Part shown: piece by piece, positions 6,001 to 54,980 of the stretch
Position numbering within the stretch: the stretch's first letter is position 1
Layout: every line of letters begins with the position of its first letter
From: the human T2T-CHM13v2.0 reference genome, Homo sapiens
NCBI GenBank assembly: GCA_009914755.4
Contig: CP086569.2
Span: 27,456,001 to 27,520,000 of the forward strand
DNA: 64,000 bases
Reading direction: 5' to 3'
Program-made: the position numbers and the translations under genes
Notes under the pieces: generated by a model
The model's database searches: none
The model's input: the letters and a program-made list of their open reading frames with translations, nothing else
What the model was told of the DNA's origin: nothing

Positions 6001-6690
6001 CAAATTGAATCGAATGGACCAAATGGAATCAAATGATATCAAACAAAATTGAATCAAACGGAATTGAATGGAATAGAATGAAATCAAATGGAAAGTGGTG
6101 AAGTGGAGTGTAGTGGAATGGAGTTTAATGGAATGGGTTGGAATGGAATTGAATGGACTGGAGTGGATTGGAGTGGAATGAAGTGGAGTGAGTGGAGTGG
6201 AATGGAGAGGAAAGTAGTTTAGTGGAGTGGATTGGAGTGGAATGGAGTGGAGTGGAATGGAATGGATTGGACTGAAATGGAATGGAATGGAATCAAATGG
6301 AATTGCATGGAATCAAATTGAACCAAATCTAATCAAATTTAATAGAATCAAAAGGGAAAAGTGGAATCAAAAGAAATCAAATTCAATGGATAGGAAAGGC
6401 ATCGAATGGAATTGAATGGAATGCGATGAAGTGGAGTGGAGTAGAATGGAGTGGAATGGAATCGGATGAAATGGAATTGAATGGAGTGGAGTGGTGTGGA
6501 GTGGACGGAGTATAATGGAATGGGAAGAAATGGAATTGAATGGAGTGGACTTGAGTGGGGTGGAATGGAGAGGAATGGAGGGGAAACGAGTGGAATGGAG
6601 GGGAAAAGAGAGGAATGGAGGGGAAAGTACTGGAAAGGAGTGAAGTGGAGGGGAATGGAGTAAAGTGGAATTGAATGCAGTGGAGTGGAA
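1..6690 (+). repeat. Diverged satellite segment without higher-order periodicity (ancestral-type subrepeats only)
   Basis: ORF peptides in this segment do not recur at a fixed period. Recurrent motifs such as aatgYRgtgaagtggagtgg and gggaaggaatggaattgaacRgagtggagtgg occur at irregular spacing of about 250-550 bp. Similarity to the downstream HOR decays gradually upstream of about 6.7 kb. Confidence 0.7.
6570..6665 (+). repeat. Local GGGG-rich variant block (ggaatggaggggaaaNNag x3 plus gtggaggggaatggag) at the edge of the HOR array
   Basis: Seen directly: ggaatggaggggaaacgag, tggaatggaggggaaaagag, aggaatggaggggaaagtactgg, ...gtggaggggaatggag. There are four GGGG runs about 20-25 bp apart. The block is absent at the homologous phase of downstream HOR copies, for example around 9.40-9.52 kb. 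Confidence 0.6.
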
Positions 6691-32011: not shown

Positions 32012-34874
32012 CCACATTGGTTAAACTGAGATAGAATAATATCAAAAGAAATGTGGTGAAGTGGAGTGGAGTGTAACGAAATGGAGTGGAATGAAATTGA
32101 ATGGAGTGGGGTCGATTGGAGTCTACTGGAGTGGAATGGAATGGAATGGAAAGGAATGGAATAGAATGGAGTGAAGTGTAGTGCAGTGAAATGGAGTGGA
32201 AAGGAATGGAATGGAATGGAATGGAATCAAATGGAATCGAAGTGAATCGAAGCTAATGAAATTGATCAGAAAAAATCGAATGGAGTAGAATCGAATAATA
32301 TGGATTCAAAAGGCAACAAATAGAATGAATGGAATGCGGTGAGTTGGAGGGCAATGGAATGGAGTTGAATGGAATGGCGTGTAATTGAATTGAATGGAGT
32401 GGAGTGGATTGGAGTGGACTGGAGTGGAATGGAACAGAATGGGCAGGAATGGAATTGAAAGGCGTGAATTGTAATTGAGTGCTGTGGATTGGAGTAGACT
32501 GCATTGTAGTGGATTGCAGTGGAAAGAAGTGGAGTGGAATGGAATGGAAGGCAATGGAGTGGAGGGGAATGGAATGGAGTGGAGTAGAATGGAATTTAAT
32601 GGAGTGGAGTGGAATTGAGTGGAATGGAGAGTAATGGAGTGGAGTGGACTGGAGCGAAGTGGAGTGTAGTGCATTAGACTGTAGGGGATTGAAGTGGCTT
32701 GGAGTGCAATGGAGTGGAGTGGAATGGAATGTAATGGAATGGAATGGAATGGAATGGAATGGAATGGAGTGGAATGGAATCGAATCACATGGAACTGAAT
32801 CAAATCGAATTGAATGAAATTGAATGGAAAAAATGGAATGAAATGGAATCAAATCGAATGGATTCGAATGACATTGAATGGAATCGAAAGGAATGCAGTG
32901 AGGTGTAGTTGAGTGGAGTGGAGTGGAATGGAATGGGATGAATGGAATTGACTGGAGAGGAGTGGAATGGAATGGAATGGAAAGGAATGGAATTGAACGA
33001 AATGGAGTGTGGTAGAATGTAGTGGATTGGAGTGGAGTGCAGGGGAGTGCAGTGGAATGAAGAGGAGTGTAGTTGAATGGAATGGAATGGTATGGAACGT
33101 ACTGGAATGGAATGGATAAGAATGGAATGGAATGGAATCGCATAGAATTGAATAGAATGAAATCGAATTGAATAGAATCAAATGGAAAAAATGGAGGCAA
33201 ATGGAATCGAATGTCATAGAATCGAACGGTTTTGAATGTCAGAGAATGGAAACGAATGGAATGCGATGATGTAGAGCGGAGTGGAGTGGAAAGGAGTGCA
33301 ATGGAATAGGGTGGAAAAGAATTTAATGGAACAGAGTGGATTGGAGTGGACTGGAGTGGAATGGAATGGGAAGGAATGGGATTGAAAGGAGTGGCGTGCA
33401 GTGGAGTGGAGTGGCATGGAGTGGAGTGGAGTGGAATGGAGTGGAATGGAATGGAGTGGAATGGAGTGGATTGGAATGGAATGGAGTGCAGAGGAATGGA
33501 ATGGAATGGTATAGAGTGGACAGGAATGGAGTGGAGTGGATTGGAATGGAATGGAATGTAAGGGAATGGAACTGAATGGACTGGAATGGAATGGAGTAGA
33601 ATGGAATCACAGGGAATCAAATTGGATTGAATCGAATCGAATGGAGAAAATGAAATCAAATGAAATTGAATGGAATCGAATTGAATGTAAACAATGGAAT
33701 CCAATGGAGTCAAATGGAATCGAATCAAATGGTTTTGAATGGCATCAAATGAAATGGCATGGAAGGCAGTGAATTGGAGTGGAGTGGAATAGAGAGGAAT
33801 GAATTGGAATGGAGTGTAGTGGAATGGAGTGGATTGGATTGGAATGGAATGGAATAGATTGGATTGGAGTGGTGCAGAGTGGAGTGGACTGGAGTGCAGA
33901 GGAATGGAGTGGAGTGAAGTCCAGTTGAGTGGAATGGAATGGAGTGGAGCAGAGTGGAATTCAAAAGAATGAAGTGGATTGGTATGGAATGGAATGGCGT
34001 GGAATGGCGTGGAATAGAATGGAATGGAATCGCATGGAATGATATGAAATCAAATCGAATTGAACGGAAAATTATGAATCCAATGGAATCGAAAGGATTC
34101 TAAAGGAATGGATTCGAAAGGCATTGAATGGAATGGAAAGGAATGCAGTGAAGTGGAGTGGAGTGGAGTGGAATGTTTTAGAGTGAACTGGGGTGGATTG
34201 GAACTCTATGGCGGGGAGTGGAGTGAAGTGGATTGGAGTGGAATGGAGCGCAATGGACTGGAGTGGAGTGGAATGGATTGGAGTGGAGTGGAGTGCATCG
34301 GAGTGGAGTGCTGTGGAGTGGACTAGAGTGGGGTGGAGTGGAGTGCATTGGAGTGGAATGGAACGGAGTGGGGTGGAATGGAATGGAATGGAATCAAATC
34401 GCATGGTAATGAATCAAATGGAATCAAATCGAATGGAAATAATGGAATCGAAGGGAAACGAATGGAATCGAATTGCACTGATTCTACTGACTTCGAGGAA
34501 AATGAAATGAAATGCGGTGAAGTGGAATGGAGGGAATGTATTAGGGTGGAATGGAATTGAATGGTGTGGAGTGGAGTGGAGTGCCCAGGAGTGGAATGGG
34601 AAGAAATGGAATTGAACGGAGTGGAGTGGAGTGGAATGGGGGATAATGGAGTGGAGTAGAGTGGAGTGGAGTAGAGTGGAATGGGTTGGAGTGTAATGCA
34701 GAGTACAGGAGTGGAGTGCGGTGGACTGGAGTGGAGTGGAGTTGAGTGGAGTGGATTGGATTGAAATAGAGCGGAGCAGAGTGGAATGGAATTGAATCAC
34801 ATGGTATTGAATCAAATCGAATGGAATTAAATCGAATCAAAAAATGGAATCAAAAGCAAACGAATGGAGTCAAA
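32012..34874 (+). repeat. HOR unit U9 (2863 bp, c type)
   Basis: The 491-aa ORF 32253-33728 is identical in translation to 52359-53834 at +20106. Tail ORF 34193-34510 is c type. Confidence 0.85.
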
Positions 34875-37752: not shown

Positions 37753-40644
37753 CCTCATTGGTAAAACTGACATCGAAAAATATCAAATGAAATGTGGTGA
37801 AGTGGAGTGGAGTGTAATGAAATGGGGTGGAATGAAATTGAATGGAGTGGAGTGGATTGGAGTCTACTGGAGTGGAATGGAACGGAATGCAAAGGAATGG
37901 AATAGAATGCAGTGAAGTGCAGTGCAGTGAAGTGGAGTGGAAAGGAATGGAATGGAATGGAATGGAATGGAATGGAATGGAACGGAATCAAATGGTATCG
38001 AAGTGAATCGAATCTAATGAAATTGATCGGAAAAAATGGAATGGAGTAGAATCGAATAAGATGGATTCAAAGGCAACAAATAGAATTGAATGGAATGCGG
38101 TGAGGTGGAGGGCATTGGAATGGAGTTGAATGGAATGGGGTATAATTGAATTGAATGGAGTGGAGTGGATTGCAGTGGACTGGAGTGGAATGGAACGGAA
38201 TGGGCAGGAATGGAATTGAAAGGGGTGAATTGGAATTGAGTGCTGTGGATTGGAGTAGACTGCATTGTAGTGGACTGGAGTGGAAAGAAGTGGAGTGGAA
38301 TGGAATGGAATGCAATGGAGTGGAGTGGAATGGAATGGAGTGGAGTAGAATGGAATTTAATGGAGTGGAGTGGAATTGAGTGGAATGGAGAGTAATGGAG
38401 TGGAGTGGACTGGAGCGAAGTGGAGTGTAGTGCATTGGACTGTAGGGGATTGAAGTGGCTTGGAGTGCAATGGAGTGGAGTGGAATGGAATGTAATGGAA
38501 TGGAATGGAATGGAGTGGAATGGAGTGGAATGGAATCGAATCACATGGAACTGAATCAAATCGAATTGAATGAAATTGAATGGAAAAAATGGAATGAAAT
38601 GGAATCAAATCGAATGGATTCGAATGACATTGAATGGAATCAAAAGGAATGCAGTGAGGTGGAGTTGAGTGAAGTGGAGTGGAATGGAATGGGATGAATG
38701 GAATTGACTGGAGAGGAGTGGAATGGAATGGAATGGAAAGTCATGGATTTGAAAAAAATGGAGTGTAGTAGAATGTAGTGGATTGGAGTGGAGTGCAGGG
38801 GAGTGCAGTGGAATGAAGTGGAGTGTAGTTGAATGGAATGGAATGGTATGTAACGTACAGGAATGGAATGGATAAGAATGGAATGGAATGGAATCGCACG
38901 GAATTGAATAGAATCAAATCGAATTGAATAGAATCAAATGGAAAAATGGAGTCAAATGGAATCGAATGGCATAGAATGGAACGGTTTTGAATGTCAGTGA
39001 ATGGAAACGAATGGAATGCGATGAAGTGGAGCGGAGTGGAGTGGAAAGGAGTGCAATGGAATAGGGTGGAACAGAATTTAATGGTACAGAGTGGATTGGA
39101 GTGTACTGGAGTGGAATGGAATGGGAAGGAATGGGATTGAAAGGAGTGGCGTGCAGTGGAGTGGAGTGGCATGGAGTGGAGTGGAGTGGAATGGAGTGGA
39201 ATGGAATGGAGTGGAATGGAGTGGATTGGAATGGAATGGAGTGCAGAGGAATGGAATGGAATGGTATAGAGTGGACAGGAATGGAGTGGAGTGGATTGGA
39301 ATGGAATGGAATGTAAGGGAATGGAACTGAATGGACTGGAATGGAATGGAATAGAATGGAATCGCAGGGAATCAAATTGGATTGAATCGAATCGAATGGA
39401 AAAAATGAAATCAAATGAAATTGAATGGAATCGAATTGAATGTAAACAATGGGATCCAATGGAATCCAATGGAATCGAATCAAATGGTTTTGAATGGCAT
39501 CAAATGAAATGGCATGGAAGGCAGTGAATTGGAGTGGAGTGGAATAGAGTGGAACGAATTGGAATGGAGTGTAGTGGAATGGCGTGGATTCCATTGGAGT
39601 GGAGTGGATTGGATTGGAATGGAATGGAATAGATTGGATTGGAGTGGTGCAGAGTGGAGTGGACTGGAGTGCAGAGGAATGGAGTGGAGTGAAGTCCAGT
39701 TGAGTGGAATGGAATGGAGTGGAGCAGAGTGGAATGCAATAGAATGAAGTGGAATGGTATGGAATGGAATGTCGAGGAATGACGTGGAATAGAAAGGAAT
39801 GGAATCGCATGGAACGATACCAAATCAAATCGAATCAAACGGAAAATTATGAATCCTATGGAATCGAAAGGATTCTAAAGGAAGGGATTCGAAATGCATT
39901 GAATGGAATGGAAAGGAATGCAGTGGAGTGGAGTGGAGTGGAATGTTTTAGAGTGAACTTGGGTGGATTGGAACTCTATGGAGAGGAGTGGAGTGAAGTG
40001 GATAGGAGTGGAATGGAGTGCAATGGACTGGAGTGGAGTGGAATGGATTGGAGTGGAGTGGAGTGGATCGGAGTGGAGTGCCGTGGAGTGGACTAGAGTG
40101 AGGTGGAGTGGAGTACATTGGAGTGGAATGGAGTGGAGTGGGGTGCAATGGAATGGAATGGCATCAAATCGCATGGTAATGAATCAAATGGAATCAAATG
40201 GAATGGAAATAATGGAATCGAAGGCAAACGAATGGAATCGAATTGCACTGATTCTACTGACTTCGAACAAAATGAAATGAAACGCGGTGAAGTGGAGTGG
40301 AGTGGAATGTATTGGGTGGAATGGAATAGAATGGTGTGGAGTGGAGTGGAGTGCCCAGGAGGGGAACGGGAAGAAATGGAATTGAAGGGAGTGGAGTGGA
40401 GTGGAATGGGGCATAATGGAGTGGAATAGTGTGGAGTGGAGTAGAGTGGAATGGGTTGGAATGGAATGCAGAGGACAGGATTGGAGTGCGTTGGACTGGA
40501 GTGCAGTAGAGTTGAGTGGAGTGGAGTGGATTGAAATAGAGCGGAGCAGAGTGGGATGGAATTGAATCACATGGTATTGAATCAAATCGAATGGAATTAA
40601 ATCGAATGTAAAAATGGAATCAAATGCAAACGAATGGAGTCAAA
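37753..40644 (+). repeat. HOR unit U11 (2892 bp, a type); copy 2 of the duplicated block begins about 38.7 kb
   Basis: ORFs 38741-39469, 38914-39828, 39749-40096 and 39963-40280 match U7 ORFs at an offset of 11502. Confidence 0.85.
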
Positions 40645-43513
40645 CCACATTGGTTAAACTGACATCGAATAATATCAAAAGAAATGTGGTGAAGTGGAGT
40701 GGAGTGTAACGAAATGGAGTGGAATGAAATTGAATGGAGTGGGGTAGATTGGAGTCTACTGGAGTGGAATAGAATGGAATGGAAAGGAATGGAATAGAAT
40801 GGAGTGAAGTGCAGTGCAGTGAAATGGAGTGGAAAGGAATGGAATGGAATGGAAGCAAATGGAATCGAAGTGAATCGCATCTAATGAAATTGATCGGAAA
40901 AAATGGAATGGAGTAGAATCGAAGAAGATGGATTCAAAAGGCAACAAATAGAATTGAATGGAATGCGGTGAGTTGGAGGGCATTGGAATGGAGTTGAATG
41001 GAATGGGGTGTAATTGAATTGAATGGAGTGGAGTGGATTGTAGTGGACTGGAGTGGAATGGAACGGAATGGGCAGGAATTTAATTGAAAGGGGTGAATTG
41101 GAATTGAGTGCTGTGGATTGGAGTAGACTGCATTGTAGTGGATTGGAGTGGAAAGAAGTGGAGTGGAATGGAATTGAATGCAATGGAGTGGGGTGGAATG
41201 GAATGGAGTGGAGTAGAATGGAATTTAATGGAGTGGAGTGGAATTGAGTGGAATGGAGAGTAATGGAGTGGAGTGGACTGGAGCGAAGTGGAGTGTAGTG
41301 CATTGGACTGTAGGGGATTGAAGTGGCTTGGAGTGCAATGGAGTGGAGTGGAATGGAATGTAATGCCATGGAATGGAATGGAATGGAATGTAGTGGAATG
41401 GAATCGAATCACATGGAACTGAATCAAATCGAATTGAATGAAATTGAATGGAAAAAATGGAATCCAATGGAATCAAATCGAATGGATTCGAATGACATTG
41501 AATGGAATCGAAATGAATGCAGTGAGGTGGAGTTGAGTGGAGTGGAGTGGAATGGAATGGGATGAATGGAATTGACTGGAGAGGAGTGGAATGGAATGGA
41601 ATGGAAAGCAATGGAATTGAACAAAATGGAGTGTAGTAGAATGTAGTGGATTGGAGTGGAGTGCCGGGGAGTGCAGTGAAATGAAGAGGATTGTAGTTGA
41701 ATGGAATGGAATGGTATGGAACGTACTGGAATGGAATGGATAAGAACGGAATGGAATGGAATCGCATGGAATTGAAAAGAATCAAATCGAATTGAATAGA
41801 ATCAAATGGAAAAAATGGAGGCAAATGGAATCGAATGTCATAGAATCGAACGGTTTTGAATGTCAGTGAATGGAAACGAATGGAATGCGATGAAGTGGAG
41901 CGGAGTGGAGTGGAAAGGAGTGCAATGGAATAGGGTGGAACAGAATTTAATGGAACAGAGTGGATTGGAGTGGACTGGAGTGGAATGGAAAGGGAAGGAA
42001 TGGGATTGAAAAGAGTGGCGTGCAGTGGAGTGGAGTGGCATGGAGTGGAGTGGAGTGGAATGGAGTGGAATGGAATGGAGTGGAATGGAGTGGATTGGAA
42101 TGGAATGGAGTGCAGAGGAATGGAATGGAATGGTATAGAGTGGACAGGAATGGAGTGGAGTGGATTGGAATGGAATGGAATGTAAGGGAATGGAACTGAA
42201 TGGACTGGAATGGAATGGAATAGAATGGAATCGCAGGGAATCAAATTGGATTGAATCGAATCGAATGGAAAAAATGAAAACAAATGAAATTGAATGGAAT
42301 CGAATTGAATGTAAACAATGGAATCCAATGGAGTCAAATGGAATCGAATCAAATGGTTTTGAATGGCATCAAATGAAATGACATGGAAGGCAGTGAATTG
42401 GAGTGGAGTGGAATAGAGAGGAATGAATTGGAATGGAGTGTAGTGGAATGGCGTGGATTCCAGTGGAGTGGAGTGGATTGGATTTGAATGGAATGGAATA
42501 GATTCTATTCGAGTGGTGCAGAGTGGAGTGGACTGGAGTGCAGAGGAATGGAGTGGAGTGAAGTCCAGTTGAGTGGAATGGAATGGAGTGGAGCAGAGTG
42601 GAATGCAAAAGAATGAAGTGGATTGTTATGGAATGGAATGGCGTGGAATGGCGTGGAATAGAATGAAATTAAATCGCATGGAATGATACCAAATCAAATC
42701 GAATCAAACGGAAAATTATGAATCCAATGGAATCGAAAGGATTCTAAAGGAATGGATTCGAAAGGCATTGAATGGAATGTAAAGGAATGCAGTGGAGTGG
42801 AGTGGAGTGGAATGTTTTAGAGTAAACTTGGGTGGATTGGAAATCTATGGAGAGGAGTGCAGTGAAGTGGATTGGAGTGGAATGGAGTGCAATGGACTGG
42901 AGTGGACTGGAATGGATTGGAGTGGAGTGGATTGGATCGGAGCGGAGTGCCGTGGAGTGGACTAGAGTGAGGTGGAGTGGAGTGCATTGGAGTGGAATGG
43001 AGTGGAGTGGGGTGCAACGGAATGGAATGGCATCAAATCGCATGGTAATGAATCAAATGGAATCAAATCGAATGGAAATAATGGAATCGAAGGCAAACGA
43101 ATGGAATCGAATTGCACTGATTCTACTGACTTCGAACAAAATGAAATGAAACGCGCTGAAGTGGAGTGGAGTGGAATGTATTGGGTGGAATGGAATAGAA
43201 TGGTGTGGAGTGGAGTGGAGTGCCCAGGAGTGGAATGGGAAGAAATGGAATTGAACGGAGTGGAGTGGAGTGGAATGGGGCATAATGGAGTGGAATAGTG
43301 TGGAGTGGAGTAGAGTGGAATAGGTTGGAGTGGAATGCAGAGGACAGGATTGGAGTGCGGTGGACTGGAGTGGAGTAGAGTTGAGTGGAGTGGAGTGGAT
43401 TGAAATAGAGCGGAGCAGAGAGGGATGGAATTGAATCACATGGAATTGAATCAAATCGAATGGAATTAAATCGAATGAAAAAATGGAATCAAATGTAAAC
43501 GAATGGAGTCAAA
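40645..43513 (+). repeat. HOR unit U12 (2869 bp, b type)
   Basis: ORFs 41225-42352 and 42832-43149 match U8 at an offset of 11502. The gattctattc variant lies at about 42496-42510. Confidence 0.85.
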
Positions 43514-46371
43514 CCACATTGGTTAAACTGAGATAGAATAATATCAAAAGAAATGTGGTGAAGTGGAGTGGAGTGTAACGAAATGGAGTGGAATGAAATT
43601 GAATGGAGTGGGGTCGATTGGAGTCTACTGGAGTGGAATGGAATGGAATGGAAAGGAATGGAATAGAATGGAGTGAAGTGTAGTGCAGTGAAATGGAGTG
43701 GAAAGGAATGGAATGGAATGGAATGGAATCAAATGGAATCGAAGTGAATCGAAGCTAATGAAATTGATCAGAAAAAATCGAATGGAGTCGAATCGAATAA
43801 TATGGATTCAAAAGGCAACAAATAGAATGAATGGAATGCGGTGAGTTGGAGGGCAATGGAATGGAGTTGAATGGAATGGCGTGTAATTGAATTGAATGGA
43901 GTGGAGTGGATTGGAGTGGACTGGAGTGGAATGGAACAGAATGGGCAGGAATGGAATTGAAAGGCGTGAATTGTAATTGAGTGCTGTGGATTGGAGTAGA
44001 CTGCATTGTAGTGGATTGCAGTGGAAAGAAGTGGAGTGGAATGGAATGGAAGGCAATGGAGTGGAGGGGAATGGAATGGAGTGGAGTAGAATGGAATTTA
44101 ATGGAGTGGAGTGGAATTGAGTGGAATGGAGAGTAATGGAGTGGAGTGGACTGGAGCGAAGTGGAGTGTAGTGCATTAGACTGTAGGGGATTGAAGTGGC
44201 TTGGAGTGCAATGGAGTGGAGTGGAATGGAATGTAATGGAATGGAATGGAGTGGAATGGAATCGAATCACATGGAACTGAATCAAATCGAATTGAATGAA
44301 ATTGAATGGAAAAAATGGAATGAAATGGAATCAAATCGAATGGATTCGAATGACATTGAATGGAATCGAAAGGAATGCAGTGAGGTGTAGTTGAGTGGAG
44401 TGGAGTGGAATGGAATGGGATGAATGGAATTGACTGGAGAGGAGTGGAATGGAATGGAATGGAAAGGAATGGAATTGAACGAAATGGAGTGTGGTAGAAT
44501 GTAGTGGATTGGAGTGGAGTGCAGGGGAGTGCAGTGGAATGAAGAGGAGTGTAGTTGAATGGAATGGAATGGTATGGAACGTACTGGAATGGAATGGATA
44601 AGAATGGAATGGAATGGAATCGCATAGAATTGAATAGAATGAAATCGAATTGAATAGAATCAAATGGAAAAAATGGAGGCAAATGGAATCGAATGTCATA
44701 GAATCGAACGGTTTTGAATGTCAGAGAATGGAAACGAATGGAATGCGATGATGTAGAGCGGAGTGGAGTGGAAAGGAGTGCAATGGAATAGGGTGGAAAA
44801 GAATTTAATGGAACAGAGTGGATTGGAGTGGACTGGAGTGGAATGGAATGGGAAGGAATGGGATTGAAAGGAGTGGCGTGCAGTGGAGTGGAGTGGCATG
44901 GAGTGGAGTGGAGTGGAATGGAGTGGAATGGAATGGAGTGGAATGGAGTGGATTGGAATGGAATGGAGTGCAGAGGAATGGAATGGAATGGTATAGAGTG
45001 GACAGGAATGGAGTGGAGTGGATTGGAATGGAATGGAATGTAAGGGAATGGAACTGAATGGACTGGAATGGAATGGAATAGAATGGAATCGCATGGAATC
45101 AAATTGGATTGAATCGAATCGAATGGAAAAAATGAAAACAAATGAAATTGAATGGAATCGAATTGAATGTAAACAATGGAATCCAATGGAGTCAAATGGA
45201 ATCGAATCAAATGGTTTTGAATGGCATCAAATGAAATGACATGGAAGGCAGTGAATTGGAGTGGAGTGGAATAGAGAGGAATGAATTGGAATAGAGTGTA
45301 GTGGAATGGCGTGGATTCCAGTGGAGTGGAGTGGATTGGATTTGAATGGAATGGAATAGATTGGATTGGAGTGGTGCAGAGTGGAGTGGACTGGAGTGCA
45401 GAGGAATGGAGTGGAGTGAAGTCCAGTTGAGTGGAATGGAATGGAGTGGAGCAGAGTGGAATGCAAAAGAATGAAGTGGATTGTTATGGAATGGAATGGC
45501 GTGGAATGGCGTGGAATAGAATGAAATTAAATCGCATGGAATGATACCAAATCAAATCGAATCAAACGGAAAATTATGAATCCAATGGAATCGAAAGGAT
45601 TCTAAAGGAATGGATTCGAAAGGCATTGAATGGAATGTAAAGGAATGCAGTGGAGTGGAGTGGAGTGGAATGTTTTAGAGTAAACTTGGGTGGATTGGAA
45701 ATCTATGGAGAGGAGTGGAGTGAAGTGGATTGGAGTGGAATGGAGTGCAATGGACTGGAGTGGACTGGAATGGATTGGAGTGGAGTGGATTGGATCGGAG
45801 CGGAGTGCCGTGGAGTGGACTAGAGTGAGGTGGAGTGGAGTGCATTGGAGTGGAATGGAGTGGAGTGGGGTGCAACGGAATGGAATGGCATCAAATCGCA
45901 TGGTAATGAATCAAATGGAATCAAATCGAATGGAAATAATGGAATCGAAGGCAAACGAATGGAATCGAATTGCACTGATTCTACTGACTTCGAACAAAAT
46001 GAAATGAAACGCGCTGAAGTGGAGTGGAGTGGAATGTATTGGGTGGAATGGAATAGAATGGTGTGGAGTGGAGTGGAGTGCCCAGGAGTGGAATGGGAAG
46101 AAATGGAATTGAACGGAGTGGAGTGGAGTGGAATGGGGCATAATGGAGTGGAATAGTGTGGAGTGGAGTAGAGTGGAATAGGTTGGAGTGGAATGCAGAG
46201 GACAGGATTGGAGTGCGGTGGACTGGAGTGGAGTAGAGTTGAGTGGAGTGGAGTGGATTGAAATAGAGTGCAGCAGAGAGGGATGGAATTGAATCACATG
46301 GAATTGAATCAAATCGAATGGAATTAAATCGAATGAAAAAATGGAATCAAATGTAAACGAATGGAGTCAAA
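43514..46371 (+). repeat. HOR unit U13 (2858 bp, chimeric: c-type head, b-type tail)
   Basis: The head (ORFs 43755-44285, 44331-44699, 44818-45057) matches the U9 head at offset 11502 to 11482. The tail (ORFs 45018-45239, 45602-45901, 45690-46007) matches the U8 tail at offset 14360. The switch lies at about 44.9-45.08 kb. Confidence 0.8.
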
Positions 46372-49248
46372 CCACATTGGTTAAACTGAGATAGAATAAT
46401 ATCAAAAGAAATGTGGTGAAGTGGAGTGGAGTGTAACGAAATGGAGTGGAATGAAATTGAATGGAGAGGGGTCGATTGGAGTCTAGTGGAGTGGAATGGA
46501 ATGGAATGGAAAGGAATGGAATAGAATGGAGTGAAGTGTAGTGCAGTGAAATGGAGTGGAAAGGAATGGAATGGAATGGAATGGAATCAAATGGAATCGA
46601 AGTGAATCGAAGCTAATGAAATTGATCAGAAAAAATCGAATGGAGTCGAATCGAATAATATGGATTCAAAAGGCAACAAATAGAATGAATGGAATGCGGT
46701 GAGTTGGAGGGCAATGGAATGGAGTTGAATGGAATGGGGTGTAATTGAATTGAATGGAGTGGAGTGGATTGGAGTGGACTGGAGTGGAATGGAACAGAAT
46801 GGGCAGGAATGGAATTGAAAGGCGTGAATTGTAATTGAGTGCTGTGGATTGGAGTAGACTGCATTGTAGTGGATTGCAGTGGAAAGAAGTGGAGTGGAAT
46901 GGAATGGAAGGCAATGGAGTGGAGGGGAATGGAATGGAGTGGAGTAGAATGGAATTTAATGGAGTGGAGTGGAATTGAGTGGAATGGAGAGTAATGGAGT
47001 GGAGTGGACTGGAGCGAAGTGGAGTGTAGTGCATTAGACTGTAGGGGATTGAAGTGGCTTGGAGTGCAATGGAGTGGAGTGGAATGGAATGTAATGTAAT
47101 GGAATGGAATGGAATGGAATGGAATGGAGTGGAATGGAATCGAATCACATGGAACTGAATCAAATCGAATTGAATGAAATTGAATGGAAAAAATGGAATG
47201 AAATGGAATCAAATCGAATGGATTCGAATGACATTGAATGGAATCGAAAGGAATGCAGTGAGGTGGAGTTGAGTGGAATGGAGTGGAATGGAATGGGATG
47301 AATGGAATTGACTGGAGAGGAGTGGAATGGAATGGAATGGAAAGTCATGGAATTGAAAAAAATGGAGTGTAGTAGAATGTAGTGGATTGGAGTGGAGTGC
47401 AGGGGAGTGCAGTGGAATGAAGTGGAGTGTAGTTGAATGGAATGGAATGGTATGGAACGTACAGGAATGGAATGGATAAGAATGGAATGGAATGGAATCG
47501 CATGGAATTGAATAGAATCAAATCGAATTGAATAGAATCAAATGTAAAAATGGAGTCAAATGGAATCGAATGGCATAGAATGGAACGGTTTTGAATGTCA
47601 GTGAATGGAAACGAATGGAATGCGATGAAGTGGAGCGGAGTGGAGTGGAAAGGAGTGCAATGGAATAGGGTGGAACAGAATTTAATGGTACAGAGTGGAT
47701 TGGAGTGTACTGGAGTGGAATGGAATGGGAAGGAATGGGATTGAAAGGAGTGGCGTGCAGTGGAGTGGAGTGGCATGGAGTGGAGTGGAGTGGAATGGAG
47801 TGGAATGGAATGGAGTGGAATGGAGTGGATTGGAATGGAATGGAGTGCAGAGGAATGGAATGGAATGGTATAGAGTGGACAGGAATGGAGTGGAGTGGAT
47901 TGGAATGGAATGGAATGTAAGGGAATGGAACTGAATGGACTGGAATGGAATGGAATAGAATGGAATCGCAGGGAATCAAATTGGATTGAATCAAATCGAA
48001 TGGAAAAAATGAAATCAAATGAAATTGAATGGAATCGAATTGAATGTAAACAATGGGATCCAATGGAATCCAATGGAATCGAATCAAATGGTTTTGAATG
48101 GCATCAAATGAAATGGCATGGAAGGCAGTGAATTGGAGTGGAGTGGAATAGAGTGGAACGAATTGGAATGGAGTGTAGTGGAATGGCGTGGATTCCATTG
48201 GAGTGGAGTGGATTGGATTGGAATGGAATGGAATAGATTGGATTGGAGTGGTGCAGAGTGGAGTGGACTGGAGTGCAGAGGAATGGAGTGGAGTGAAGTC
48301 CAGTTGAGTGGAATGGAATGGAGTGGAGCAGAGTGGAATGCAATAGAATGAAGTGGAATGGTATGGAATGGAATGTCGAGGAATGACGTGGAATAGAAAG
48401 GAATGGAATCGCATGGAACGATACCAAATCAAATCGAATCAAACGGAAAATTATGAATCCTATGGAATCGAAAGGATTCTAAAGGAAGGGATTCGAAATG
48501 CATTGAATGGAATGGAAAGGAATGCAGTGGAGTGGAGTGGAGTGGAATGTTTTAGAGTGAACTTGGGTGGATTGGAACTCTATGGAGAGGAGTGGAGTGA
48601 AGTGGATAGGAGTGGAATGGAGTGCAATGGACTGGAGTGGAGTGGAATGGATTGGAGTGGAGTGGAGTGGATCGGAGTGGAGTGCCGTGGAGTGGACTAG
48701 AGTGAGGTGGAGTGGAGTACATTGGAGTGGAATGGAGTGGAGTGGGGTGCAATGGAATGGAATGGCATCAAATCGCATGGTAATGAATCAAATGGAATCA
48801 AATGGAATGGAAATAATGGAATCGAAGGCAAACGAATGGAATCGAATTGCACTGATTCTACTGACTTCGAACAAAATGAAATGAAACGCGGTGAAGTGGA
48901 GTGGAGTGGAATGTATTGGGTGGAATGGAATAGAATGGTGTGGAGTGGAGTGGAGTGCCCAGGAGGGGAACGGGAAGAAATGGAATTGAAGGGAGTGGAG
49001 TGGAGTGGAATGGGGCATAATGGAGTGGAATAGTGTGGAGTGGAGTAGAGTGGAATGGGTTGGAATGGAATGCAGAGGACAGGATTGGAGTGCGTTGGAC
49101 TGGAGTGCAGTAGAGTTGAGTGGAGTGGAGTGGATTGAAATAGAGCGGAGCAGAGTGGGATGGAATTGAATCACATGGTATTGAATCAAATCGAATGGAA
49201 TTAAATCGAATGTAAAAATGGAATCAAATGCAAACGAATGGAGTCAAA
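46372..49248 (+). repeat. HOR unit U14 (2877 bp, a-type body with c-type head); copy 3 of the duplicated block begins about 47.1-47.16 kb
   Basis: Head ORF 46666-47163 is nearly identical to 32306-32803 (U9) and to the adjacent unit (43808-44176), not to the U7 head. From 47160 onwards the ORFs equal those of U7 at an offset of 20106. Confidence 0.8.
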
Positions 49249-52117
49249 CCACATTGGTTAAACTGACATCGAATAATATCAAAAGAAATGTGGTGAAGTG
49301 GAGTGGAGTGTAACGAAATGGAGTGGAATGAAATTGAATGGAGTGGGGTCGATTGGAGTCTACTGGAGTGGAATAGAATGGAATGGAAAGGAATGGAATA
49401 GAATGGAGTGAAGTGCAGTGCAGTGAAATGGAGTGGAAAGGAATGGAATGGAATGGAAGCAAATGGAATCGAAGTGAATCGCATCTAATGAAATTGATCG
49501 GAAAAAATGGAATGGAGTAGAATCGAAGAAGATGGATTCAAAAGGCAACAAATAGAATTGAATGGAATGCGGTGAGTTGGAGGGCATTGGAATGGAGTTG
49601 AATGGAATGGGGTGTAATTGAATTGAATGGAGTGGAGTGGATTGTAGTGGACTGGAGTGGAATGGAACGGAATGGGCAGGAATTTAATTGAAAGGGGTGA
49701 ATTGGAATTGAGTGCTGTGGATTGGAGTAGACTGCATTGTAGTGGATTGGAGTGGAAAGAAGTGGAGTGGAATGGAATTGAATGCAATGGAGTGGGGTGG
49801 AATGGAATGGAGTGGAGTAGAATGGAATTTAATGGAGTGGAGTGGAATTGAGTGGAATGGAGAGTAATGGAGTGGAGTGGACTGGAGCGAAGTGGAGTGT
49901 AGTGCATTGGACTGTAGGGGATTGAAGTGGCTTGGAGTGCAATGGAGTGGAGTGGAATGGAATGTAATGCCATGGAATGGAATGGAATGGAATGTAGTGG
50001 AATGGAATCGAATCACATGGAACTGAATCAAATCGAATTGAATGAAATTGAATGGAAAAAATGGAATCCAATGGAATCAAATCGAATGGATTCGAATGAC
50101 ATTGAATGGAATCGAAATGAATGCAGTGAGGTGGAGTTGAGTGGAGTGGAGTGGAATGGAATGGGATGAATGGAATTGACTGGAGAGGAGTGGAATGGAA
50201 TGGAATGGAAAGCAATGGAATTGAACAAAATGGAGTGTAGTAGAATGTAGTGGATTGGAGTGGAGTGCCGGGGAGTGCAGTGAAATGAAGAGGATTGTAG
50301 TTGAATGGAATGGAATGGTATGGAACGTACTGGAATGGAATGGATAAGAACGGAATGGAATGGAATCGCATGGAATTGAAAAGAATCAAATCGAATTGAA
50401 TAGAATCAAATGGAAAAAATGGAGGCAAATGGAATCGAATGTCATAGAATCGAACGGTTTTGAATGTCAGTGAATGGAAACGAATGGAATGCGATGAAGT
50501 GGAGCGGAGTGGAGTGGAAAGGAGTGCAATGGAATAGGGTGGAACAGAATTTAATGGAACAGAGTGGATTGGAGTGGACTGGAGTGGAATGGAAAGGGAA
50601 GGAATGGGATTGAAAAGAGTGGCGTGCAGTGGAGTGGAGTGGCATGGAGTGGAGTGGAGTGGAATGGAGTGGAATGGAATGGAGTGGAATGGAGTGGATT
50701 GGAATGGAATGGAGTGCAGAGGAATGGAATGGAATGGTATAGAGTGGACAGGAATGGAGTGGAGTGGATTGGAATGGAATGGAATGTAAGGGAATGGAAC
50801 TGAATGGACTGGAATGGAATGGAATAGAATGGAATCGCAGGGAATCAAATTGGATTGAATCGAATCGAATGGAAAAAATGAAAACAAATGAAATTGAATG
50901 GAATCGAATTGAATGTAAACAATGGAATCCAATGGAGTCAAATGGAATCGAATCAAATGGTTTTGAATGGCATCAAATGAAATGACATGGAAGGCAGTGA
51001 ATTGGAGTGGAGTGGAATAGAGAGGAATGAATTGGAATGGAGTGTAGTGGAATGGCGTGGATTCCAGTGGAGTGGAGTGGATTGGATTTGAATGGAATGG
51101 AATAGATTCTATTCGAGTGGTGCAGAGTGGAGTGGACTGGAGTGCAGAGGAATGGAGTGGAGTGAAGTCCAGTTGAGTGGAATGGAATGGAGTGGAGCAG
51201 AGTGGAATGCAAAAGAATGAAGTGGATTGTTATGGAATGGAATGGCGTGGAATGGCGTGGAATAGAATGAAATTAAATCGCATGGAATGATACCAAATCA
51301 AATCGAATCAAACGGAAAATTATGAATCCAATGGAATCGAAAGGATTCTAAAGGAATGGATTCGAAAGGCATTGAATGGAATGTAAAGGAATGCAGTGGA
51401 GTGGAGTGGAGTGGAATGTTTTAGAGTAAACTTGGGTGGATTGGAAATCTATGGAGAGGAGTGCAGTGAAGTGGATTGGAGTGGAATGGAGTGCAATGGA
51501 CTGGAGTGGACTGGAATGGATTGGAGTGGAGTGGATTGGATCGGAGCGGAGTGCCGTGGAGTGGACTAGAGTGAGGTGGAGTGGAGTGCATTGGAGTGGA
51601 ATGGAGTGGAGTGGGGTGCAACGGAATGGAATGGCATCAAATCGCATGGTAATGAATCAAATGGAATCAAATCGAATGGAAATAATGGAATCGAAGGCAA
51701 ACGAATGGAATCGAATTGCACTGATTCTACTGACTTCGAACAAAATGAAATGAAACGCGCTGAAGTGGAGTGGAGTGGAATGTATTGGGTGGAATGGAAT
51801 AGAATGGTGTGGAGTGGAGTGGAGTGCCCAGGAGTGGAATGGGAAGAAATGGAATTGAACGGAGTGGAGTGGAGTGGAATGGGGCATAATGGAGTGGAAT
51901 AGTGTGGAGTGGAGTAGAGTGGAATAGGTTGGAGTGGAATGCAGAGGACAGGATTGGAGTGCGGTGGACTGGAGTGGAGTAGAGTTGAGTGGAGTGGAGT
52001 GGATTGAAATAGAGCGGAGCAGAGAGGGATGGAATTGAATCACATGGAATTGAATCAAATCGAATGGAATTAAATCGAATGAAAAAATGGAATCAAATGT
52101 AAACGAATGGAGTCAAA
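49249..52117 (+). repeat. HOR unit U15 (2869 bp, b type)
   Basis: ORFs 49829-50956 and 51436-51753 equal the U8 and U12 ORFs at offsets of 20106 and 8604. Confidence 0.85.
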
Positions 52118-54980
52118 CCACATTGGTTAAACTGAGATAGAATAATATCAAAAGAAATGTGGTGAAGTGGAGTGGAGTGTAACGAAATGGAGTGGAATGA
52201 AATTGAATGGAGTGGGGTCGATTGGAGTCTACTGGAGTGGAATGGAATGGAATGGAAAGGAATGGAATAGAATGGAGTGAAGTGTAGTGCAGTGAAATGG
52301 AGTGGAAAGGAATGGAATGGAATGGAATGGAATCAAATGGAATCGAAGTGAATCGAAGCTAATGAAATTGATCAGAAAAAATCGAATGGAGTCGAATCGA
52401 ATAATATGGATTCAAAAGGCAACAAATAGAATGAATGGAATGCGGTGAGTTGGAGGGCAATGGAATGGAGTTGAATGGAATGGCGTGTAATTGAATTGAA
52501 TGGAGTGGAGTGGATTGGAGTGGACTGGAGTGGAATGGAACAGAATGGGCAGGAATGGAATTGAAAGGCGTGAATTGTAATTGAGTGCTGTGGATTGGAG
52601 TAGACTGCATTGTAGTGGATTGCAGTGGAAAGAAGTGGAGTGGAATGGAATGGAAGGCAATGGAGTGGAGGGGAATGGAATGGAGTGGAGTAGAATGGAA
52701 TTTAATGGAGTGGAGTGGAATTGAGTGGAATGGAGAGTAATGGAGTGGAGTGGACTGGAGCGAAGTGGAGTGTAGTGCATTAGACTGTAGGGGATTGAAG
52801 TGGCTTGGAGTGCAATGGAGTGGAGTGGAATGGAATGTAATGGAATGGAATGGAATGGAATGGAATGGAATGGAGTGGAATGGAATCGAATCACATGGAA
52901 CTGAATCAAATCGAATTGAATGAAATTGAATGGAAAAAATGGAATGAAATGGAATCAAATCGAATGGATTCGAATGACATTGAATGGAATCGAAAGGAAT
53001 GCAGTGAGGTGTAGTTGAGTGGAGTGGAGTGGAATGGAATGGGATGAATGGAATTGACTGGAGAGGAGTGGAATGGAATGGAATGGAAAGGAATGGAATT
53101 GAACGAAATGGAGTGTGGTAGAATGTAGTGGATTGGAGTGGAGTGCAGGGGAGTGCAGTGGAATGAAGAGGAGTGTAGTTGAATGGAATGGAATGGTATG
53201 GAACGTACTGGAATGGAATGGATAAGAATGGAATGGAATGGAATCGCATAGAATTGAATAGAATGAAATCGAATTGAATAGAATCAAATGGAAAAAATGG
53301 AGGCAAATGGAATCGAATGTCATAGAATCGAACGGTTTTGAATGTCAGAGAATGGAAACGAATGGAATGCGATGATGTAGAGCGGAGTGGAGTGGAAAGG
53401 AGTGCAATGGAATAGGGTGGAAAAGAATTTAATGGAACAGAGTGGATTGGAGTGGACTGGAGTGGAATGGAATGGGAAGGAATGGGATTGAAAGGAGTGG
53501 CGTGCAGTGGAGTGGAGTGGCATGGAGTGGAGTGGAGTGGAATGGAGTGGAATGGAATGGAGTGGAATGGAGTGGATTGGAATGGAATGGAGTGCAGAGG
53601 AATGGAATGGAATGGTATAGAGTGGACAGGAATGGAGTGGAGTGGATTGGAATGGAATGGAATGTAAGGGAATGGAACTGAATGGACTGGAATGGAATGG
53701 AGTAGAATGGAATCACAGGGAATCAAATTGGATTGAATCGAATCGAATGGAGAAAATGAAATCAAATGAAATTGAATGGAATCGAATTGAATGTAAACAA
53801 TGGAATCCAATGGAGTCAAATGGAATCGAATCAAATGGTTTTGAATGGCATCAAATGAAATGGCATGGAAGGCAGTGAATTGGAGTGGAGTGGAATAGAG
53901 AGGAATGAATTGGAATGGAGTGTAGTGGAATGGAGTGGATTGGATTGGAATGGAATGGAATAGATTGGATTGGAGTGGTGCAGAGTGGAGTGGACTGGAG
54001 TGCAGAGGAATGGAGTGGAGTGAAGTCCAGTTGAGTGGAATGGAATGGAGTGGAGCAGAGTGGAATTCAAAAGAATGAAGTGGATTGGTATGGAATGGAA
54101 TGGCGTGGAATGGCGTGGAATAGAATGGAATGGAATCGCATGGAATGATATGAAATCAAATCGAATTGAACGGAAAATTATGAATCCAATGGAATCGAAA
54201 GGATTCTAAAGGAATGGATTCGAAAGGCATTGAATGGAATGGAAAGGAATGCAGTGAAGTGGAGTGGAGTGGAGTGGAATGTTTCAGAGTGAACTGGGGT
54301 GGATTGGAACTCTATGGCGGGGAGTGGAGTGAAGTGGATTGGAGTGGAATGGAGCGCAATGGACTGGAGTGGAGTGGAATGGATTGTAGTGGAGTTGAGT
54401 GGATCGGAGTGGAGTGCTGTGGAGTGGACTAGAGTGGGGTGGAGTGGAGTGCATTGGAGTGGAATGGAACGGAGTGGGGTGGAATGGAATGGAATGGAAT
54501 CAAATCGCATGGTAATGAATCAAATGGAATCAAATCGAATGGAAATAATGGAATCGAAGGGAAACGAATGGAATCGAATTGCACTGATTCTACTGACTTC
54601 GAGGAAAATGAAATGAAATGCGGTGAAGTGGAATGGAGGGAATGTATTAGGGTGGAATGAAATTGAATGGTGTGGAGTGGAGTGGAGTGCCCAGGAGTGG
54701 AATGGGAAGAAATGAAATTGAACGGAGTGGAGTGGAGTGGAATGGGGGATAATGGAGTGGAGTAGAGTGGAGTGGAGTAGAGTGGAATGGGTTGGAGTGT
54801 AATGCAGAGTACAGGAGTGGAGTGCGGTGGACTGGAGTGGAGTGGAGTTGAGTGGAGTGGATTGGATTGAAATAGAGCGGAGCAGAGTGGAATGGAATTG
54901 AATCACATGGTATTGAATCAAATCGAATGGAATTAAATCGAATCAAAAAATGGAATCAAAAGCAAACGAATGGAGTCAAA
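52118..54980 (+). repeat. HOR unit U16 (2863 bp, c type)
   Basis: The 491-aa ORF 52359-53834 is identical in translation to 32253-33728. Tail ORF 54299-54616 is c type. Confidence 0.85.

What the first reader, a model, noticed from the sequence alone, without database searches (positions are those of the whole stretch)
44900..45080. Unequal-crossover / conversion junction inside unit U13 (c-type head joined to b-type tail)
Up to about 45057 the unit follows the c lineage. ORF 44818-45057 equals 33336-33575 and 53442-53681, with MDWSGLEWNGMGRNGIERSGVQWSGVAW. From about 45075 it follows the b lineage. The sequence ggaatagaatggaatcgcatggaatc...ggaaaaaatgaaaaca matches U8 at 30701 (ggaatagaatggaatcgcagggaatc...ggaaaaaatgaaaaca). 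It does not match U9 at 33581 (ggagtagaatggaatcacagggaatc...ggagaaaatgaaatca). ORF 45018-45239 equals 30658-30879. A breakpoint in the middle of a unit that joins two variant lineages is the classic footprint of out-of-register exchange. It explains why the second super-block is a b b' (3 units) rather than a b c c.
Basis: seen in the sequence. Interest (0 to 1): 0.65.

Follow-up and report, generated by a model that had tools for sequence, protein, structure and literature searches.

The report
Recombination seam in a pentamer satellite
The junction is real: it is one clean recombination seam inside a (GGAAT)n satellite array with a 2.87 kb repeat unit. This kind of unequal-exchange footprint is routine in satellite DNA, so it is ordinary rather than surprising.

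Summary
The window is a non-coding (GGAAT/GGAGT)n satellite. From about 6.65 kb onward it is organised in 2.87 kb units of three recent types: a, b and c.

The reported switch is confirmed.
- Unit X (about 44.2-47.3 kb) is base-for-base identical to the sequence that normally precedes a c body over 44235-45077.
- From 45078 to 47141 it carries b-lineage states.
- Of 123 independent diagnostic sites, 20 are c and then 98 are b. The 5 misfits are all sites where X keeps the ancestral base. None of 100,000 permutations fits a single breakpoint as well.
- The breakpoint can only be placed within 44871-45077.

An exchange that is out of register between units but in register within the unit is the best explanation.
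- Whether X counts as a "hybrid unit" depends on the chosen unit start.
- The b part is not a copy of its neighbours. It differs from them at 12 sites and is an older b type whose tail precedes an a unit, like the units at 19255 and 24996.
- A c×b crossover between a-b-c-c blocks would give five units, not three.

The ORFs are pentamer artefacts. This is a known kind of event and of low interest.

The parts
44871..45077 (.). J1: the interval that must contain the c-context to b-body switch. X is identical to both lineages across these 207 bp.
   Evidence: The last c-type diagnostic site is 44870 and the first b-type site is 45078. This is the longest uninterrupted b/c identity tract in the 2.87 kb unit.
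44235..44870 (.). The 'c-type head' of X. It is equally the normal tail of the preceding b unit B3 (42239-45096), and it is the right end of the young duplicon copy S2.
   Evidence: It is exactly identical to 32753-33388 and 52859-53494. All 20 diagnostic sites here are c-type, several of them unique to X, C1 and C3 (44493, 44626, 44725, 44752, 44755, 44799).
45078..47141 (.). X body: b-lineage sequence, sister to the B1/B3/B4 group and not a copy of it.
   Evidence: It shares 18 derived sites with B1/B3/B4 alone, 10 more that B2b also shares, and 3 shared by all b units. It lacks 4 derived sites. There are 12 differences from the B consensus, 6 of them private: 45094, 45293, 46271, 46467, 46486 and 47097.
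47142..47265 (.). J2: the second switch interval. To its left X resembles B1/B3/B4. To its right it is identical to the a-preceding tail of the 24996 unit, which is the head of the a units.
   Evidence: 8 b-type sites up to 47097, then at least 17 sites of the a-preceding type from 47266, with none out of order. X differs from the 24996 unit at 1 site over about 820 bp of tail, against about 50 over the 2.06 kb body. The interval overlaps 47120-47265, the second-longest b/c identity tract for the B3/C1 and B1/C1 pairs; the tract is absent for B4/C3.
38900..45077 (.). S2: the middle copy of a young duplicon of about 6.2 kb (a unit + b unit + tail). J1 is its right edge.
   Evidence: It differs from S3 (47504-53681) by 3 substitutions and one 20 bp deletion, and from S1 by 6 substitutions. 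S2 and S3 share 3 derived sites.
47142..53701 (.). S3: the right-hand copy of the duplicon. J2 is its left edge.
   Evidence: It differs from S1 (27036-33595) by 7 substitutions. The similarity continues into the following c unit.
27036..33595 (.). S1: the left-hand copy of the duplicon. It is preceded by an older b unit (24996) and followed by c c, the same unit order as X-a-b-c-c.
44234..44235 (.). Site of a 20 bp deletion (four pentamers) private to S2. It is the reason the unit 42239-45096 is 2858 bp long rather than 2878 bp.

Best explanation
J1 is the seam left by one homologous exchange between repeat units that were misaligned by a whole number of 2.87 kb units but aligned in register within the unit. 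The exchange could have been an unequal sister-chromatid or inter-homologue crossover, or a break-induced template switch, which would leave the same footprint.

The left partner contributed '...a, b, plus the tail that normally leads into a c unit'. The right partner contributed an older-type b unit that was already followed by an a unit, giving 'b(X) a b c c...'. The strands joined inside the 207 bp tract (44871-45077) where all unit types are identical. That is why the unit length is preserved and the breakpoint cannot be seen directly.

The result is a local three-unit period (8604 bp) in place of the four-unit a-b-c-c period (11502 bp).

Shown: the single sharp switch, its position in the longest identity tract, the in-register geometry, and the older and distinct nature of the X body.

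Inferred: that it was a single event, which molecules took part, and whether it added or removed units.

No function is implied. This is neutral turnover of a non-coding satellite.
For: - Clean switch: 20 c sites then 98 b sites, with 0 of 100,000 permutations fitting a single breakpoint as well. Identity to the c context is exact up to 45077 and to the b context from 44871.
- J1 lies in the longest b/c identity tract, 207 bp.
- Register is preserved. Unit lengths are 2858 bp (2878 minus a private 20 bp deletion) and 2877 bp, and the lag of 8604 bp equals 3 units.
- The X body is sister to B1/B3/B4, with 18 shared derived sites, 4 lacking and 5-6 private. It therefore came from a different, older b unit.
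- From 47142 the X tail is the a-preceding type seen after the older b units at 19255 and 24996. It shares A at 47278 with those two only, and not with the c-to-a tail at 38674.
- The order X-a-b-c-c (45097-59476) is colinear with b-a-b-c-c at 24996-39369, with per-unit identities of 98.3, 99.8, 100, 98.4 and 97.1%.
- Hybrid units and structural variants from unequal exchange are standard in satellite arrays (PMC9549924; bioRxiv 10.1101/2021.07.12.452052; PMC4022460).
Against: - Only one haplotype and 64 kb of the array are available. Neither a parental arrangement nor a reciprocal product is seen.
- From 47142 the X tail is about 99.9% identical to the tail of the 24996 unit, although their bodies differ by about 2.4%. 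Some further exchange or homogenisation with an edge at J2 is therefore needed.
- That edge coincides with the second-longest b/c identity tract, which would follow naturally if X were a two-ended patch.
- The three duplicon copies differ too little (3-7 substitutions) to order the events firmly. Three sites support S2+S3 and one supports S1+S3.
Confidence: 0.6

Rival explanations
1. Two-ended event. A 2.07-2.39 kb b-type patch replaced the c body of the third unit of an a-b-c block. This could have happened by long-tract gene conversion or by two successive crossovers, with ends at J1 (44871-45077) and J2 (47142-47265).
For: There are two clean switch points. They fall in the longest and, for the B3/C1 and B1/C1 pairs, the second-longest b/c identity tracts of the unit, 207 and 147 bp of about 2870. 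Two uniformly placed breakpoints would do that in well under 1% of cases, by my rough post-hoc estimate. Both flanks of X are young duplicon copies.
Against: No donor is present: the closest b bodies differ at 12-13 sites, 5 of which are ancestral states in X. The recipient would have needed a c-to-a tail, but X has A at 47278, as the b-to-a tails do, whereas the only c-to-a tail in the window has G. The model also needs an earlier c1/c2 deletion, so it requires more events. J2 is equally well explained as the ordinary b-to-a adjacency of the older units.
Confidence: 0.22
2. Assembly artefact: a false join inside the 207 bp identity tract between two distant parts of a long, nearly identical satellite array.
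For: Arrays with 99.9% identical 6 kb blocks are error-prone to assemble. The join lies exactly where the sequence is uninformative. No independent copy of the junction was found in metagenome contigs or in the protein collection, although those collections are not expected to hold it.
Against: The X body has 6 private bases and its own combination of states, so it is a real, distinct unit and not a collapsed copy of B1/B3/B4. The register and unit lengths are exact. Long reads from current platforms would span 207 bp easily.
Confidence: 0.08
3. Mosaic of many small conversions, or chance resemblance, rather than a single junction.
For: There are three short islands inside the b body where X lacks the B1/B3/B4 state (45363-45368, 45718, 46738), and two homoplasies with B2b (45718, 46269).
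Against: Those islands carry the base shared by nearly all other units, and none carries a c-specific base (0 of 61 c-derived sites). The rest of the pattern is an unbroken run, and no permutation reproduces it.
Confidence: 0.03
4. The ORFs across the junction (44818-45057, 45018-239, and 44176-45210 on the minus strand) encode proteins, and the junction creates a chimeric gene.
For: The ORFs exist.
Against: Stop codons are 2-fold (plus strand) to 6-fold (minus strand) rarer than base composition predicts in all six frames, because the pentamer has no stop codon in any frame. Pfam gives only a sub-threshold low-complexity hit (Lamprin, 15.7 bits against a cut-off of 34). The exact sequences are absent from a collection of 15 billion proteins. 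No Rfam family matches either.
Confidence: 0.01

Closest known systems
Structural-variant higher-order repeats with hybrid monomers in human alpha satellite, formed by unequal crossover or out-of-register indels (PMC9549924 section 2.5.2; bioRxiv 10.1101/2021.07.12.452052)
   Same: Two unit types are fused in register, so unit length is preserved. The local repeat period changes by whole units. Whether a 'hybrid' is seen depends on the cyclic start chosen for the unit, exactly as found here.
   Different: The units here are 2.87 kb pentamer-derived units, not 171 bp monomers. The array is of the pericentromeric satellite II/III type and not centromeric alpha satellite.
Human satellite III / (GAATG)n arrays with kilobase-scale higher-order or 'nested tandem' repeats (PMC2588610; PMC4022460; bioRxiv 10.1101/2021.07.12.452052)
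   Same: The consensus pentamer is GGAAT, with GGAGT variants. There is a kilobase-scale periodicity and short non-pentameric islands within each unit.
   Different: Species, chromosome and subfamily could not be determined with these tools. A 2.87 kb unit with 8.6/11.5 kb superperiods is not among the periods I could find in the papers I read (1.77, 3.36, 3.6 and 5.8 kb).
Smith's unequal-crossover model of tandem-repeat evolution (Smith 1976, cited in PMC4022460 and PMC9549924)
   Same: The model predicts block duplications and deletions, near-identical multi-unit blocks, and junctions placed in shared homology.
   Different: Nothing differs: this is an instance of the model.

Membership tests
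Satellite III-type (GGAAT)n satellite with a kilobase higher-order / nested tandem repeat | Pentamer GGAAT (CATTC) is the basic repeat | tested here: met
   TRF finds period 5 with consensus TGGAA over 6-63248. The commonest 5-mers are rotations of GGAAT, followed by rotations of GGAGT.
Satellite III-type (GGAAT)n satellite with a kilobase higher-order / nested tandem repeat | Kilobase-scale periodic unit with high identity between units | tested here: met
   There are 20 consecutive units of 2839-2893 bp from about 7861 to the end of the window, 94-100% identical to each other. Superperiods of 8604, 11502 and 20106 bp are present.
Satellite III-type (GGAAT)n satellite with a kilobase higher-order / nested tandem repeat | Assignment to a named HSat2/HSat3 subfamily, chromosome and species | not testable with these tools
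   No eukaryotic genome collection is available. Two metagenome scans found nothing. The 10-mer ACTCGGGTTG/CAACCCGAGT, which I recall from memory as typical of some satellite III subfamilies, is absent.
Unequal-exchange structural variant (hybrid unit) of a tandem array | A single sharp switch of lineage-diagnostic sites | tested here: met
   20 c sites then 98 b sites. The 5 misfits are all ancestral states. 0 of 100,000 permutations match.
Unequal-exchange structural variant (hybrid unit) of a tandem array | Junction in register within the unit, with the period changed by whole units | tested here: met
   Unit lengths are 2858 bp (with the private 20 bp deletion) and 2877 bp. The lag of 8604 bp equals 3 units, against 11502 bp for 4 units.
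Unequal-exchange structural variant (hybrid unit) of a tandem array | Breakpoint within a tract of uninterrupted shared identity | tested here: met
   44871-45077 (207 bp) is the longest b/c identity tract in the unit.
Unequal-exchange structural variant (hybrid unit) of a tandem array | Parental arrangement or reciprocal product observed; junction supported by reads | not testable with these tools
   Only a single assembled haplotype of 64 kb is available, with no reads and no other haplotypes.
Gene-conversion patch | Two switch points bounding a tract in an otherwise unchanged recipient | tested here: inconclusive
   A second switch exists at 47142-47265. It is also the ordinary b-to-a adjacency of the older b units, and site 47278 favours that reading.
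Gene-conversion patch | A donor with a matching sequence | tested here: not met
   The closest b bodies in the window differ from X at 12-13 sites over about 2.1 kb, whereas the flanking duplicon copies differ at 3-7 sites over about 6.2 kb. A donor outside the window is not excluded.
Protein-coding gene | Homology to a protein family, or presence in protein collections | tested here: not met
   Pfam gives only a sub-threshold low-complexity hit. The exact sequences are not in the collection. The stop-codon deficit is explained by the pentamer.

The most novel reading that the evidence does not exclude
Both edges of the 2.1-2.4 kb b-type segment lie in the two longest tracts of perfect b/c identity (for two of the three b/c pairs compared). 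If X is a single two-ended event, it would be a sequence-resolved case of kilobase-scale long-tract conversion between non-allelic units in pericentromeric heterochromatin. Its end points would have been selected by the length of uninterrupted homology. That rule could be tested array-wide in complete genome assemblies.
Probability: 0.15. Interest if true: 0.3.

Novelty: new member of a known kind. Interest (0 to 1): 0.15.

Why it matters
The junction matters only as a worked example. It shows at base resolution how a pentamer-derived satellite array changes its local period, here from four units to three, by homologous exchange inside a short tract shared by all unit types.

It also shows that whether a unit is called a 'hybrid' depends on where the units are taken to start. 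Seams of this kind are useful markers for array haplotyping and for checking assemblies of satellite regions.

It does not reveal a new element, gene or mechanism.

Tried and rejected
1. Independent copies of the junction. A J1-specific pattern combining c-head, b-body and b-specific markers is unique in the window. It gave no hit in metagenome contigs, and neither did a 52-mer general marker of the c-type head. The organism and other haplotypes therefore remain unknown.

2. Exact look-up of the three ORF products that span or adjoin the junction in the 15-billion protein collection gave no match.

3. Pfam and Rfam searches gave nothing meaningful.

4. A single recent 20.1 kb (7-unit) duplication with J1 as its junction was rejected. 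Paired units are unequally similar (98.3, 99.8, 100, 98.4 and 97.1%, then about 94.8%) and colinearity stops after 5 units.

5. A simple 8.6 kb tandem duplication of 'X-body + duplicon' fits the closeness of S2 and S3 (3 shared derived sites). However, it predicts a second X body to the left of S2, where a c body and an older, diverged a-head are found (38642-38899). It therefore needs a further event, and I could not order the events with 3-7 substitutions.

6. It gives a 5-unit block, or a 3-unit block with a c body. It is also rejected because the X body is not a copy of the neighbouring b units.

7. A literature search for a known 2.9 kb / 11.5 kb satellite III periodicity found none.

Full report
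WHAT THE WINDOW IS

Tandem Repeats Finder reports one period-5 array (consensus TGGAA) over 6-63248. G is in strong excess over C throughout (GC skew about 0.7). The commonest pentamers are the rotations of GGAAT, followed by those of GGAGT.

A kilobase unit is superimposed on the pentamer. A full b unit aligns end to end 19 times between 7861 and 62369, with unit lengths of 2839-2893 bp, and a twentieth, cut-off copy runs to the end of the window. A partial unit (6653-7860) precedes the first. Bases 1-6650 are only about 70% similar and show no such unit.

This is the organisation described for human satellite III-type (GAATG)n arrays with higher-order or 'nested tandem' repeats (PMC2588610; bioRxiv 10.1101/2021.07.12.452052). 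Species and chromosome could not be determined with the tools available.

The sequence is non-coding. Stop codons are 2-fold to 6-fold rarer than expected in all six frames, simply because the pentamer has no stop codon in any frame. Pfam, Rfam and an exact look-up among 15 billion proteins gave nothing.

UNIT TYPES

When units are cut at the 44-bp sub-repeat landmark, the recent part of the array reads as follows.

| Start | Label | Type |
|---|---|---|
| 19255 | B2a | older b |
| 22128 | A2 | a' |
| 24996 | B2b | older b |
| 27868 | A1 | a |
| 30737 | B1 | b |
| 33615 | C1 | c |
| 36493 | C2 | c |
| 39370 | A3 | a |
| 42239 | B3 | b |
| 45097 | X | b-like |
| 47974 | A4 | a |
| 50843 | B4 | b |
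| 53721 | C3 | c |
| 56593 | C4 | c' |
| 59477 | C5 | c' |

- The a units are 99.8-99.9% identical to each other.
- B1 and B4 are 100.0% identical at the alignment's resolution (one substitution apart), and B3 is 99.2% identical to them.
- X is 98.7% identical to B1 and 98.3% to B2b.
- b and c units are only about 94% identical.

CHECKING THE OBSERVATION

X is base-for-base identical to the two c-context copies over 44235-45077, and the first mismatch is at 45078. X equals the b-context copies over 44871-45292 except for a private T at 45094.

That private base is why the second claimed equality (45018-45239 = 30658-30879) fails by one nucleotide.

I aligned all 15 recent units from 1000 bp before the landmark to 2300 bp after it. 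I then scored the columns where B1/B3/B4 and C1/C3 are each fixed but differ from each other. With indels collapsed, there are 123 such sites between 44235 and 47141. They read 20 c followed by 98 b, with 5 misfits. The best single breakpoint lies between 44870 and 45078, and none of 100,000 permutations fits a single breakpoint as well.

The five misfits (45363/4/8, 45718, 46738) are sites where B1/B3/B4 carry a derived base and X keeps the base present in nearly all other units. None of the 61 sites where the c lineage is derived shows the c allele in X to the right of the junction.

Its position can only be stated as 44871-45077.

WHAT SURROUNDS IT

A three-way alignment of the super-blocks shows three nearly identical copies of a segment made of an a unit, a b unit and the tail that leads into a c body.

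| Copy | Coordinates |
|---|---|
| S1 | 27036-33595 |
| S2 | 38900-45077 |
| S3 | 47142-53701 |

- S2 and S3 differ by 3 substitutions plus a 20 bp deletion private to S2 at 44234/5.
- S1 differs from S2 by 6 substitutions and from S3 by 7.
- Polarised with the older a'/b copy, S2 and S3 share 3 derived sites, and S1 and S3 share 1.

J1 is the right edge of S2. The left edge of S3 is a second switch, J2. X carries b-derived states up to 47097 and is identical to B1/B4 up to 47265. From 47142 onward it is identical to the tail of B2b, with 1 difference over about 820 bp against about 50 over the 2.06 kb body. From 47266 it carries at least 17 states of the tail type that precedes an a unit. The b-type segment is therefore 2.07 kb (45078-47141) to 2.39 kb (44871-47265) long.

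THE NATURE OF THE X BODY

In the body, 37 substitutions are fixed in B1/B3/B4 and ancestral in all a and c units. X shares 32 of them: 18 with B1/B3/B4 alone, 10 that B2b also shares, 3 shared by all b units, and 1 shared with B2a. X lacks 4, and B2b shares 1 that X lacks.

X differs from the B1/B3/B4 consensus at 12 positions. Six are private, five are ancestral states, and one is shared with B2b. That is about 0.6% divergence, against 0.05-0.1% among the flanking duplicon copies.

X is therefore not a copy of its neighbour. It is an older b unit, sister to the B1/B3/B4 group. Its tail is the a-preceding type also found after B2a and B2b. At 47278 these three tails share A, whereas the only c-to-a tail in the window (38674) has G.

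The order X-a-b-c-c is colinear with B2b-a-b-c-c 20,106 bp upstream.

MECHANISM

The simplest reading is one homologous exchange between units misaligned by whole units but in register within the unit. It joined '...a, b, plus its normal tail' to an older 'b followed by a'.

Register and unit length are preserved. The join lies in the 207 bp tract that is the longest stretch of perfect b/c identity in the unit, which is where homology-dependent exchange between different unit types is most likely.

Whether X appears as a 'hybrid unit' depends only on the chosen unit start:
- If units start about 800 bp before the landmark, X is a c head plus a b body.
- If units start at the landmark, both 42239-45096 and 45097-47973 are ordinary units, and only their adjacency is new.

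The alpha-satellite literature makes the same point about hybrid monomers (PMC9549924).

A c×b crossover between a-b-c-c blocks gives a-b-X-c-c, and the reciprocal product has a c body.

RIVALS

A two-ended patch, from long-tract conversion or two crossovers, cannot be excluded. J2 overlaps the second-longest b/c identity tract for two of the three b/c pairs (147 bp, 47120-47265), and both flanks of X are young duplicon copies. Against it, no donor is seen, site 47278 points the other way, and the model needs more events.

An assembly misjoin inside the uninformative 207 bp tract is possible in principle. It is made less likely by the six private bases of X and by the exact register. Only reads can settle this.

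A mosaic of small conversions and a coding role for the ORFs are both rejected.

The order of the duplicon events could not be resolved with 3-7 substitutions. A single 20.1 kb duplication and a simple 8.6 kb duplication each fail on one prediction.

COMPARISON WITH KNOWN SYSTEMS, AND VERDICT

This is an instance of the classical unequal-crossover turnover of tandem arrays (Smith 1976, as cited in PMC4022460 and PMC9549924). It is also an instance of the structural-variant units with hybrid junctions catalogued in alpha satellite (bioRxiv 10.1101/2021.07.12.452052). Here it occurs in a pentamer-derived satellite with a 2.87 kb unit.

It is a genuine feature and a cleanly resolved one, but of a well-known kind. 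Interest is low.

Noticed in passing
window 1-6650 versus 6653-64000: The 2.87 kb unit structure starts at about 6653. Before that the pentamer satellite is only about 70% similar to the unit and has no higher-order period. The first four units (7861-19254) are about 94-95% identical to the inner ones, which reach 97-100%. The window therefore seems to cross the edge of the homogeneous array, with identity rising inward.
   Followed up: partly
window 38642-38899: The tail of the c unit C2 that leads into a unit A3 has 5 private substitutions plus one c-state site within about 260 bp. After that it is identical to the other a-heads. This marks the left edge of the young duplicon copy S2 and looks like a relic of an older c-to-a adjacency.
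   Followed up: partly
window 44234/44235: A 20 bp deletion (four pentamers) is private to the middle duplicon copy. It is the only length difference among the three copies.
   Followed up: yes
one site per unit, e.g. 45977, 43119, 48854; longer form at 34478, 37356, 54584, 57476, 60370, 63253: Each unit contains a short non-pentameric island (GATTCTACTGA) about 880 bp after the landmark. It has 20 copies, one per unit. The c-type units (and the last, cut-off unit) share a longer exact form, CTGATTCTACTGACTTCGAGG. Its origin was not examined, and it interrupts the period-5 call of Tandem Repeats Finder at 63248.
   Followed up: no
45097-45214 and the same phase in every unit: Each unit begins with 2.7 copies of a 44 bp sub-repeat (AATGAAATTGAATGGAATCGAATCGAATGGAAAAAATGAAA[A/T]CA). 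The A/T variant separates the b-lineage units from the rest. The exception is B2a (19255), which carries the T form.
   Followed up: no
45363-45368 equivalents in 30737, 42239 and 50843 units: Three substitutions within 6 bp (G,G,G to C,T,C) are shared by B1/B3/B4 only. This looks like one multi-nucleotide event that post-dates their split from X.
   Followed up: no
53721-56592 (C3) versus 33615 (C1) and 36493 (C2): C3 matches C1 and C2 equally well over its first 1.3 kb. It lacks two C1-private indels (around 55040 and 55623). Its tail follows C1, C4 and C5 rather than C2, so the c units are themselves mosaics of relationships.
   Followed up: partly
44176-45210 minus strand: A 344-codon ORF on the minus strand runs straight across the junction. 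Minus-strand stop codons are about 6-fold rarer than expected across the whole window, so long spurious ORFs are to be expected anywhere in this satellite.
   Followed up: yes
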